Shown here piece after piece: positions 10,097 through 46,192 of a stretch of DNA of 64,000 nucleotides. Origin of the DNA: Octopus vulgaris (taxonomy: Eukaryota); the NCBI GenBank assembly GCA_951406725.2, contig OX597831.1, positions 43,710,001 to 43,774,000 of the forward strand, read 5' to 3'. Both the position numbers and the translations under genes were made by a program. Position 1 is the first letter of the stretch. Each line of letters starts with the position of its first letter. The notes under the pieces were generated by a model. The model was given only the letters and a program-made list of their open reading frames with translations. It made no database searches and was not told where the DNA came from.

Positions 10097-10179
<83 letters not shown>

Positions 10180-10183
<4 letters not shown>

Positions 10184-10373
10184 CGCCATGATAGATCATT
10201 AGCCACTACACACATTTTTGTTTTTGTTTTCTCTCCTTGTTTTTTCTGTGTACCTTTCTGTAGAAGAGCGTAGGCTCGAAACGTAAAAGACTTTTTCTAT
10301 TCCTGAGCGCTATACTAATACATCTGTTTGTTTTGTACACCACCAGTCTTCGTCTTTTGTTTTTTTTCGTAAA

Positions 10374-10739: not shown

Positions 10740-11215
10740 CATCATCATCATCATCATCATCATTTAACGTCCGCTTTCCATGCTAGCATGGGTTGGACGG
10801 TTCAACTGGGGTCTGGGGAGCCCGAAGGCTGCACCAGGCCAATCAGATCTGGCAGTGTTTCTACAGCTGGATGCCCTTCCTAACGCCAACCACTCCGAGA
10901 GTGTAGTGGGTGATTTTATGTGCCACCGACACAGGTGCCAGACGAGGCTGGTGGACGGCCACGCTCGGATGGTGTTTTTTATGTGCCACCGACACAGGTG
11001 CCAGACGAGGCTGGCAGACGGCCATGCTCGGATGGTGTTTTTATGTGCCACCGACACAGGTGCCAGATGAGGCTGGCGAACGGCCACGATCGGATGGTGT
11101 TTGTTACGTGCCCACAGCACGGAGGCCAGTCGATGCGGTACTGGCTACGGCCACGTTTGGATGGTTTTCTTGTGTTCCACCGGCACTGGTACCACAAAGA
11201 TACAAATTCCATTGA
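10739..11215 (-). mobile_element. Retroposon family C with internal ~62-bp minisatellite (3 clear units plus degenerate ones)
   Basis: (CAT)n tail at 10739; unit TTTATGTGCCACCGACACAGGTGCCAGAYGAGGCTGG...CGGATGGTGT repeated across 10915-11170. Confidence 0.8.
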
Positions 11216-11778: not shown

Positions 11779-11835
<57 letters not shown>

Positions 11836-11836
<1 letters not shown>

Positions 11837-12150
11837 CGGGAAGCTTTATGAAAATAGACAAAAGACGAAGGCAGGTGGGAAACAAACAAACAATTGTATT
11901 AGTATGGCGCTCAGGAAATATAAATAAAACAAGTCTTTAACGTTTCGAGCCTACGCTCTTCAACAGAAAGATACACAGAGAGAAAAAAACACAGAAAGAA
12001 GGAGAGAAAAAAAATGCGTGCAGTAACTAACGAATCAACATGGCGATCTGATTTCGGCCAGAGGTCGAAGATCAAACATGAGACGCGAGAGCGAAATAAG
12101 GGGAGATAATAGGGTTGATAATAGGGTTGACTGACCAACTCCAACATGAG
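11836..12150 (-). mobile_element. Family H1 element (longest copy)
   Basis: Reverse-complement match to 10180-10380, with extra 5' sequence to about 12150. Confidence 0.65.
11934..11971 (-). ncRNA. Minimal hammerhead-like motif, variant core (H1)
   Basis: TCTTT-CTGTTGA-A-GAGC-GTAG-GCTC-GAAA-CG-TT-AAAGA. Confidence 0.7.
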
Positions 12151-12262
12151 GGTGTGTGTGTGTGTATGAGAGAGTATTAGTGCGTATGAGAGGTCTGGAC
12201 GTGTGTATGTATAGGGTTATATATATATATATATATATAATTGTTTGCTATGATATATGGTT

Positions 12263-12319
12263 TGTGCCTGATGAATATGCTTGAGGTATTTCTCAACATA
12301 TGAAACTATTTGTAATACA
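12263..12319 (+). ncRNA. Type I hammerhead motif (stems I and III imperfect)
   Basis: CTGATGA at 12268-12274; stem II ATATG(C)TTGAG-gtattt-CTCAACATAT (10 bp plus one bulge); GAAAC at 12302; starts about 25 bp after a (TA)n tract. Confidence 0.7.
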
Positions 12320-35922: not shown

Positions 35923-36525
35923 GTGGTGGGGAAATCACCCCGAATTTCTGTCTCAAAATAACACCATCCGAAGAACCATAGTAATTCCTACTCAGTCTAG
36001 ATAAGAAGAAAAGAAATTTCTTTTAAAAAGCAAAGAAAAGAATGCAAACAATAGCTGCCGCTGTTGTTTTGTCGCATGTGTACTGGGATGATGCGAGCAC
36101 ACACACATACACATACACAGCTATATAAACAGAGAGAGAGAGAGAAAGACAGAATTGTCTTCGTTCTGGCTTAAGTCCACCTTGTCCCGCATCCCTTCTG
36201 TGACTATCTGCCAGAGCCTACAGGTATACAAATATAGACCGTACGTACAGTAGGGAAAATGCTATAACGCCAATATTGCTCTGTCACGCTGGAACCCTTG
36301 CACGATAAAACGAGAAGCATGTCGGAGCACTGTGATTACTTGGTCCTGTATTCGGAACAAGCAACGCTTAATAACTTACATATGTAACTGCGTGTGTGTG
36401 CATGTGTGTATGTGTGTGTGTATGGAGAATTCACGAAGAAAAAAACAACAACAAAAGACGAAGACAGGTGATGTAGAAAACAAACAGATAGATGTATTAG
36501 TATGACAATCGGGAATTGAAAAAGT

Positions 36526-36561
36526 CTTTTACGTTTCGAGCCTATGCTCTTCCACAGAAAG
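36526..36561 (-). ncRNA. Minimal hammerhead-like motif, variant core (H1 element 36424-36582)
   Basis: CTTT-CTGTGGA-A-GAGC-ATAG-GCTC-GAAA-CG-TA-AAAG. Confidence 0.7.
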
Positions 36562-36579
36562 GAACACAGAAAGAAACAA

Positions 36580-36628
<49 letters not shown>

Positions 36629-45650: not shown

Positions 45651-45706
45651 TATATGCATGTTAGCCACTACACACATTTTTTTCTCTCCTTGTTTTTTCT
45701 GTGTCC

Positions 45707-45742
45707 CTTTCTGTAGAAGAGCGTAGGCTCGAAACGTAAAAG
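45707..45742 (+). ncRNA. Minimal hammerhead-like motif, variant core (H1 element 45660-45832)
   Basis: CTTT-CTGTAGA-A-GAGC-GTAG-GCTC-GAAA-CG-TA-AAAG. Confidence 0.7.
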
Positions 45743-46192
45743 ACTTTTTCTATTCCTGAGCGTTATACTAATACATCTGTTTGTTTTGTACACCACCTGT
45801 CTTCGTCTTTTTTTTTTCGTAAACTCTCCCTAAATATATATATATACCTGCAAACGTATATATACTGATATACATACATATCTATATGCATATATAGACA
45901 CATATATATACATATAGATACATACGTATATGTATATACAAATATATATACATACATACGCATATACCTGTATATATACACACATATCTATATATACATA
46001 TATGCACATACATTTATAAATGCATACATACAGATATATTTGTATGTGTACACACGTATATATAAACTTGCATACGCACATAAATATTCATATATATATG
46101 TACGTATGTATTATGTATGTATGTATATATATATATATATATATACATACATGCATATATACTTATATAAATTTATTTATATATACGTACAT

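What the first reader, a model, noticed from the sequence alone, without database searches (positions are those of the whole stretch)
10254..10289. Family H1: minimal hammerhead with non-canonical CUGUNGA core, varying only at tolerant positions
Seen: four copies (10254+, 11934-, 36526-, 45707+) read CTTT-CTGT[A/T/G/A]GA-A-GAGC-[G/A]TAG-GCTC-GAAA-CG-T[A/T]-AAAG. All have U at the normally invariant A6, an extra A before stem II and a vestigial palindromic stem III (ACGT). The only differences within the motif are at N7, loop II and H17 (A or U, never G), the positions hammerheads tolerate, while the flanks diverge more. Known: minimal PLE hammerheads can cleave as dimers through palindromic stem III. 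Inference: a selected, possibly undescribed catalytic-core variant.
Basis: partly seen in the sequence, partly recalled or inferred. Interest (0 to 1): 0.85.

Follow-up and report, generated by a model that had tools for sequence, protein, structure and literature searches.

The report
Penelope hammerhead with fixed A6U core
A 36-base hammerhead-ribozyme-shaped motif in the tail of a very abundant Penelope-like jumping gene carries U instead of the normally invariant A at core position 6 in nearly all copies, and the rest of the motif is so well kept between subfamilies that it likely still cuts RNA, though probably weakly and this is untested.

Summary
The four copies are real. They are 5'-truncated tails of a Penelope-like retroelement. 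Longer copies carry an RT + GIY-YIG ORF, and one has the motif in both pseudo-LTRs, 4,507 nt apart. The genome holds 18,758 exact-pattern copies, of which 237 have A6.

In 64 copies picked by a flank anchor, only N7 and H17 of 30 non-CpG motif positions are polymorphic, against 23 of 58 flank positions (p=0.001). This points to selection on replicating elements after U6 was fixed. Inserted copies decay, G12 included, and the loop II change is CpG decay.

The extra A and the palindromic stem III are standard for these hammerheads (PMC4209133). Only U6 is unusual. I found no natural A6U in the papers searched, but the main catalogue (Lünse 2017) was not held. A6C is published as weak in Mg2+. 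Cleavage is untested.

The scan noted other core variants (U3-A8, G3-C8) in other genomes, but no A6U. Verdict: new variant of a known kind.

The parts
10254..10289 (+). Minimal type I hammerhead, copy 1 (N7=A, H17=A). Stem I 10254-10257/10286-10289; core 10258-10264 with U6 at 10261; extra A 10265; stem II 10266-10269/10274-10277; G12 10278; palindromic ACGU 10281-10284; predicted cut after 10285
   Evidence: numbering by comparison with PMC4209133 Fig. S3
10178..10373 (+). 5'-truncated 3' tail (pLTR end) of the Penelope-like element holding copy 1, between (TA)n and (CT)n/(TA)n runs
   Evidence: blastn to full element L095, 77% over 209 nt; flanks
11935..11970 (-). Hammerhead copy 2 (N7=U, H17=U; 5-bp stem I), youngest subfamily
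   Evidence: 40 best genome hits 98-100% identical
11829..12218 (-). 5'-truncated 3' tail of the youngest PLE subfamily holding copy 2
   Evidence: blastn to L095, 89% over 390 columns
36526..36561 (-). Hammerhead copy 3 (N7=G, H17=A; CpG-type G>A at loop position L1)
36451..36581 (-). Short PLE 3' stub holding copy 3
45707..45742 (+). Hammerhead copy 4, motif identical to copy 1 (same subfamily)
45660..45839 (+). PLE 3' stub holding copy 4 (3' end approximate, runs into (TA)n)

Best explanation
The motif is the minimal hammerhead of the pseudo-LTR of a Penelope-like retroelement, fixed for U at core position 6 across its subfamilies, and it likely still self-cleaves after H17, probably slowly and only when two copies pair through the palindromic ACGU. 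Shown: location 3' of an RT + GIY-YIG ORF and in both pLTRs of a partial-tandem element; U6 as majority state of every subfamily sampled; constraint on all core and stem positions between subfamilies. Inferred: two motifs (the two pLTRs of a tandem transcript, or two RNAs) supply each other's stem III and cut out a unit-length RNA, as proposed for other PLEs. Inferred: A6U lowers the rate by losing A6 contacts and by a predicted monomer mispairing (U4.G16.2, G5-C15.2, U6-A15.1). Inferred: the element tolerates this because low cleavage suffices or a protein or metal cofactor helps. The four window copies are truncated stubs and are probably inert.
For: ORF with RVT_1 (E=6e-9), weak GIY-YIG (E=0.002, below the curated cut-off) and best Atlas clusters with RT/HTH_animal/GIY-YIG (0.98) lies upstream of the motif. 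L095 has U6 motifs in both pLTRs. A6 in 237 of 18,758 pattern matches. Downstream-anchored sample: 64 of 80 copies keep the motif (16 truncated copies dropped), U6 in 62 and A6 in 2; 2 of 30 non-CpG motif positions polymorphic at >=10% vs 23 of 58 flank positions, p=0.001 (p=0.0005 at 8%); the two are N7 (four states) and H17. Six flank-defined clusters (220 of 279 extracted copies) differ at 31 of 86 flank columns but only at N7 and H17 in the motif (clustering on flanks favours flank differences). H17 majority states are A, U and C, never G; G17 impairs minimal hammerheads (PMC3884650 abstract). Contigs of four public runs under four species labels show no variant >=3% at position 6 or any core position, only at N7, L1 and H17. 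Predicted G5-C15.2 pairing is 0.62 in 34 natural U6 copies vs 0.07 in 8 natural A6 copies.
Against: No cleavage data, and no raw RNA reads were listed. Position-6 substitutions are strongly inhibitory in published work: natural A6C kobs <0.1/min; A6C in a fast ribozyme 3.55e-6/min at 0.3 mM Mg2+; CUGA-turn mutants low apart from the C3-G8 swap. Even A6 PLE min-HHRs cleave poorly as dimers. No compensatory stem change was fixed after U6, so constraint rests on invariance, not covariation. At a 15% threshold the polymorphism contrast is not significant (2/30 vs 14/58, p=0.08). Loop II is also invariant, which catalysis alone does not require. Insertions end about 95 nt downstream of the cut site, and 5' truncations do not cluster at it (about 1 of 16). 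Rfam gives no hammerhead hit, and folding z-scores are unremarkable.
Confidence: 0.55

Rival explanations
1. The motif has lost useful catalysis but is kept as an RNA structure or sequence that the element's RT/endonuclease protein (or a host factor) recognises, for example for dimerisation, packaging or template choice.
For: A6 changes cripple cleavage in Mg2+. U6 favours a rod-like non-catalytic monomer fold. Loop II is as invariant as the core. Naiad PLEs spread without canonical hammerheads (PMC8557442 passages). Inserted 3' ends lie beyond the cut site.
Against: The only two variable positions are exactly those free in hammerhead chemistry, and H17 never takes G as a subfamily state. A plain binding site need not follow this pattern, although a conserved hammerhead-like fold could.
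Confidence: 0.3
2. U6 is a founder mutation that killed the ribozyme; the motif looks conserved only because few master elements and little time separate the subfamilies, or because the stretch is a DNA-level promoter element of the pLTR.
For: Individual insertions decay, G12 by CpG at 6 of 65. No compensatory change after U6. Position 6 is itself elevated in variability in older subfamilies. pLTRs hold promoters (PMC6765202 passage).
Against: Subfamilies span 1% to 14% divergence from their majority sequence and differ at 31-35 of 86 flank columns but at none of the 11 core positions or the stems. The flank-anchored test gives p=0.001. A DNA element would not be expected to free exactly N7 and H17.
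Confidence: 0.12
3. A6 is restored in the RNA (editing) or the strand/register is misread, so the working ribozyme is canonical.
For: None found.
Against: A U-to-A change is not a known editing chemistry (own knowledge). An edited RNA template would give A6 insertions, yet the youngest cluster has U6 in 17 of 17 copies. The ORF fixes the strand.
Confidence: 0.02

Closest known systems
Minimal hammerheads (min-HHRs) of metazoan Penelope-like elements (Cervera & De la Pena 2014, PMC4209133; main text to the reference list and the supplement read)
   Same: Type I, 3-5 bp stem I, extra nucleotide between 9 and 10.1, G10.1-C11.1 pair, palindromic 15.2-16.2, position in pLTRs, mostly single truncated copies. 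The Acropora Neptune and Ixodes entries of Fig. S3 have a 4-bp stem II of the same size.
   Different: All 56 representatives in Fig. S3 have A6 (consensus CUGANGAH; variants there are U3-A8). The paper's descriptor demands 'cuganga', so this family would be missed by it.
A6C hammerhead of phage Bcep176 (Perreault 2011, PMC3088659, sections 8, 9, 17; Naghdi 2020, PMC7151607, abstract to methods)
   Same: Natural pyrimidine at core position 6.
   Different: C not U; a single phage sequence, not a family of about 19,000 or more copies. It was assayed: weak in Mg2+, active in Mn2+. The present motif is unassayed.
Small PLE-associated hammerhead variants that cleave as dimers (Lünse, Weinberg & Breaker 2017)
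   Same: By its title (seen only in reference lists) and a review passage: short stem III, PLE association, dimer cleavage.
   Different: Unknown: the paper was not held, so I could not check whether its alignments include U6 sequences.
Neptune/Nematis-type EN+ Penelope-like elements (Craig et al. 2021, PMC8557442, passages)
   Same: RT followed by a Cys-rich linker (CX4CX2C) and C-terminal GIY-YIG, partial tandem with pLTRs, inverted truncated copies, (TA)n flanks.
   Different: Clade not placed on a tree here; Neptune versus Nematis not separated.

Membership tests
Penelope-like element (EN+) | Single ORF with RT and GIY-YIG endonuclease upstream of the motif | tested here: met
   659-aa open frame in L091: RVT_1 E=6e-9, GIY-YIG E=0.002 below cut-off, Atlas clusters RT/HTH_animal/GIY-YIG 0.98. 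Not present in the window itself (no window hit in tblastn).
Penelope-like element (EN+) | Partial tandem forming pLTRs, hammerhead in each pLTR | tested here: met
   L095: two U6 motifs 4,507 nt apart flanking a frameshifted ORF.
Neptune clade | CX2-5CxxC linker before the endonuclease and microsatellite targeting | tested here: met
   CX4CX2C read in the ORF; most copies shown end in (TA)n. The linker is shared with Nematis.
Neptune clade | RT phylogeny groups with Neptune | not tested
   No reference set was fetched.
PLE minimal hammerhead | Stems I and II around the core; G10.1-C11.1; extra nt at 9/10.1; palindromic 15.2-16.2; NUH site | tested here: met
   Sequence; predicted stem II probability 0.91-0.99, stem I 0-0.75; H17 A/U/C.
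PLE minimal hammerhead | Core CUGANGA (A6) | tested here: not met
   A6 in 237 of 18,758 and 2 of 64. It fails the published descriptor, so it is filed as a variant, not a canonical member.
PLE minimal hammerhead | Covariation in stems | tested here: inconclusive
   None within the U6 lineage. Two compensatory stem II pairs separate it from an older A6 family whose majority flank is homologous (11.2 bits vs max 2.7 in 500 shuffles).
Hammerhead ribozyme | Site-specific self-cleavage after H17, as a dimer for min-HHRs | not testable with these tools
   No assay; only assembled contigs were available.
Rfam hammerhead families | Score at a family threshold | tested here: not met
   No hammerhead among the 150 best of 541 window hits or in the 106-nt scan at E<=10. 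Expected for min-HHRs lacking stem III (inference).

The most novel reading that the evidence does not exclude
This is the first natural hammerhead lineage fixed for U6: an active retroelement family that tuned its ribozyme down. U6 pairs with A15.1 to lock the monomer off, and cleavage is released only by dimer formation, the element's own protein, or a changed metal preference like the Mn2+ switch of A6C. Whole high-copy ribozyme families would then be invisible to every 'cuganga' search.
Probability: 0.2. Interest if true: 0.72.

Novelty: new variant of a known kind. Interest (0 to 1): 0.5.

Why it matters
A6 is one of the nucleotides treated as invariant in the hammerhead core, and the only natural substitution there that I found in print is a single phage A6C. 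A family of about 19,000 or more copies that has kept U6 through successive amplification waves, with every other core position fixed, is a natural experiment on an open question: whether PLE hammerheads need to cleave efficiently, or at all. The genome supplies its own controls: natural A6 revertants, an older A6 relative family and a separate 6,576-match A6 family. It also shows that descriptor-based censuses miss large families. If it proves dead, it is evidence for a non-catalytic role of the PLE hammerhead fold. The overall kind of system is known.

Tried and rejected
(1) A U6 subfamily with stem II GGGC/GCCC, which would show a compensatory change after U6: five such copies exist, but among 30 loci from a search with one of them only the query itself has it. 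Rejected as chance double mutants.

(2) A6 copies as an ancestral subfamily of this family: they are spread over most clusters and mostly carry their cluster's N7. Read as revertants.

(3) C6 or A6 sub-branches in older subfamilies: no clustering by flank (5 of 30 C6, p=0.22; 3 of 30 A6, p=0.38; low power).

(4) Independent U6 families elsewhere. In the own genome, 51 of the 100 listed U6 matches with another stem II are sporadic mutants of the A6 family B, about 0.8% of its 6,576 matches. In metagenome contigs, 18 of 21 hits resemble the coral A6 motif of PMC4209133 Fig. S3 (one sits next to A6 repeats) and 3 are one unrelated GC-rich stretch. No A6 control count could be run there.

(5) Expression and cleavage from reads: no RNA holder listed on record, contigs only.

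(6) Searches used a gap one base too long and returned indel copies; repeated correctly. Pair indices in the folding part were wrong; repeated.

(7) Single old A6-family flanks did not score significantly against the family profile (0 of 27 at >=10 bits, 3 at >=5); only their majority sequence did.

(8) PDB sequence search: no hit.

(9) Papers not held: Lünse 2017, and two further PMC ids tried for hammerhead reviews.

Full report
Observation. The motif occurs exactly four times in the window, at 10254-10289(+), 11935-11970(-), 36526-36561(-) and 45707-45742(+), against none in 100 shuffles. A profile search adds no fifth copy. Each reads stem I CUUU, core CUGUNGA, an extra A, stem II GAGC/GCUC with a 4-nt loop, GAA, ACGU, H17 and stem I AAAG. 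Rfam gives no hammerhead hit.

What carries it. The motif lies in a repeat end shared by all four copies and bounded by microsatellites. The 2.8-Gb genome has 18,758 exact matches with positions 6, 7 and three loop bases free, and none for the reversed control. A downstream anchor alone matches 20,661 times. The genome looks octopus-like, from recall of its repeat landscape; this was not tested. Copy 2 belongs to a young subfamily (40 best hits 98-100% identical). [quoted passage not shown] The ORF hits RVT_1 at E=6e-9 and GIY-YIG at E=0.002, below the Pfam cut-off; its best Atlas clusters are RT/HTH_animal/GIY-YIG. L095 is a partial tandem with U6 motifs in both pLTRs, 4,507 nt apart. This is the layout of an EN+ Penelope-like element of Neptune/Nematis type (PMC8557442 passages). 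The window copies are 5'-truncated stubs of 130-390 nt with no ORF remnant.

How fixed U6 is. A6 occurs in 237 of 18,758 matches. In 80 copies chosen by the downstream anchor, 16 are truncated within or before the motif and were dropped; of the other 64, 62 have U6 and 2 have A6. Every flank-defined cluster has U6 as its majority state, from the youngest (1.3% from its majority sequence) to the oldest (10-14%); 220 of 279 extracted copies were clustered, a set enriched on purpose for A6. Contigs of four public runs, filed under four species labels, show variants of 3% or more inside the motif only at H17, loop L1 and N7, and depth peaks on the motif. Contigs drop rare variants, so this shows presence, not absence. 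A separate family B with a canonical core has 6,576 pattern matches, with about 51 U6 mutants listed; its link to an ORF was not tested. An older family with stem II GGAC/GUCC dominates the 80 matches, of which 70 have A6. Its majority flank scores 11.2 bits against the H1 flank profile, versus at most 2.7 in 500 shuffles. It is a plausible A6 relative, which makes U6 the likely derived state (inference; no rooted tree).

Selection, and where it acts. Inserted copies decay. In 65 copies anchored on both flanks (65 of the first 66 listed out of 3,778), G12 is mutated in 6, like flank CpG sites (21 of 193). Non-CpG core positions change at 10 of 650 against 102 of 3,099 in the flank (p=0.016). 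Part of this gap probably reflects hidden subfamily differences in the flank. Between subfamilies the contrast is sharp: 2 of 30 non-CpG motif positions are polymorphic at 10% or more, against 23 of 58 flank positions (p=0.001; p=0.0005 at 8%, p=0.08 at 15%). The two are N7, with all four bases, and H17, with A, U and C as majority states and never G. G17 impairs minimal hammerheads (PMC3884650 abstract). The replicating elements have therefore kept a hammerhead-shaped constraint since U6 was fixed. Against over-reading this: no compensatory stem change was fixed after U6, and loop II is equally invariant. Position 6 is also more variable than two other U positions in an older subfamily (19 of 100 vs 13 of 200, p=0.002, counted by hand, tested; 5 of 30 C6), with no sign that these copies form branches. 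That fits a relaxed position 6 better than a selected U.

Mechanism. For min-HHRs the published model is a dimer in which the palindromic remnant of stem III pairs between two copies; single motifs did not cleave and dimers cleaved weakly (PMC4209133). I infer the same here, with a cut after H17 (10285 in copy 1). A6U should lower activity further. Natural A6C gave kobs below 0.1/min (PMC3088659 section 8). A6C cut a fast ribozyme to 3.55e-6/min at 0.3 mM Mg2+ but left 0.18/min in Mn2+ (PMC7151607). CUGA-turn mutants were of low activity apart from the C3-G8 swap (PMC9901934 passages). I saw no measured rate for A6U itself. Folding adds a second predicted brake: U6 allows a short helix U4.G16.2, G5-C15.2, U6-A15.1 that buries the palindrome. 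G5-C15.2 has mean probability 0.62 in 34 natural U6 copies (0.97 in the 11 with N7=U) against 0.07 in 8 natural A6 copies. I put weak but real cleavage at 0.55, a non-catalytic use of the fold at 0.30 and a dead motif at 0.12. Insertions end about 95 nt past the cut site, and 5' truncations do not cluster at it, so the genome gives no direct footprint of cleavage.

Comparison with what is known. The extra nucleotide before stem II, G10.1-C11.1 and the palindromic 15.2-16.2 are listed as standard min-HHR traits. All 56 representatives in Fig. S3 of PMC4209133 have A6. That paper's descriptor requires 'cuganga', and PMC8557442 used the same string, so both would miss this family. Four full-text searches listed no paper with a natural A6U hammerhead: hammerhead + A6U + core + mutant, CUGUNGA spellings, A6U/A6G/A6C/U6A and Penelope + hammerhead + pLTR; only the top 20 of each were listed. 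Text searches of the supplements of PMC3088659 and PMC8557442 found no such core, though gaps in alignments can hide it. The main catalogue of PLE hammerhead variants, Lünse et al. 2017, was not held, so novelty is provisional. What I saw of each paper: PMC4209133, parts 1-3 of 4 of the text and the whole supplement; PMC3088659, outline, sections 8, 9, 17 and a supplement search; PMC7151607, parts 1-2 of 4; PMC8557442, PMC6765202, PMC9901934, PMC6466107 and PMC12192606, passages; bioRxiv 10.64898/2026.07.22.740005, part 1 of 5; PMC3884650, abstract and outline. Earlier notes of this scan cover U3-A8 and G3-C8 variants in other genomes, none with A6U and none like this sequence.

Verdict. This is a known kind of system, the PLE minimal hammerhead, with one apparently undescribed core substitution fixed in a very large family that still shows constraint. 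Activity is untested. New variant of a known kind; interest 0.5.

Noticed in passing
window 12268-12312 (+): Canonical-core hammerhead-like motif (CUGAUGA, about 10-bp stem II with a bulge, GAAA) that looks decayed; probably another PLE family, 50 nt beyond the truncated end of copy 2.
   Followed up: no
L132-L161 (G000, 6,576 matches): Second abundant family with a canonical A6 minimal hammerhead and a longer stem II, preceded by (AAT)n; a natural A6 control. Link to a PLE ORF not tested; no copy in the window.
   Followed up: partly
L304-L333: Old family with A6 and stem II GGAC/GUCC whose flank is homologous to H1 at the majority level; two compensatory stem II pairs separate the two.
   Followed up: partly
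G000 listing: C6 in 14 of 100 copies of an older subfamily, 9 of them on contig C2 (9 of 28; chi-square p=0.012). Unexplained; may be chance.
   Followed up: partly
L013/L014, L078, L092, L093: Pairs of H1 motifs in inverted orientation, 150 nt to several kb apart, like the inverted truncated copies described for PLE insertions.
   Followed up: no
L031-L060, 150-600 nt upstream of the motif: The young subfamily's 3' UTR has internal tandem repeats and a long pyrimidine tract whose copy number varies between insertions.
   Followed up: no
window 10915-11165 (+): About four head-to-tail copies of a roughly 65-nt GC-richer unit inside another repeat.
   Followed up: no
L001 260-1230: Broken Tc1/mariner-type transposase frames, recognised by eye from recalled motifs.
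   Followed up: no
L444-L464 (metagenome contigs): 18 of 21 U6 hits resemble the coral Neptune-type motif published with A6; likely sporadic mutants; no A6 control count.
   Followed up: partly
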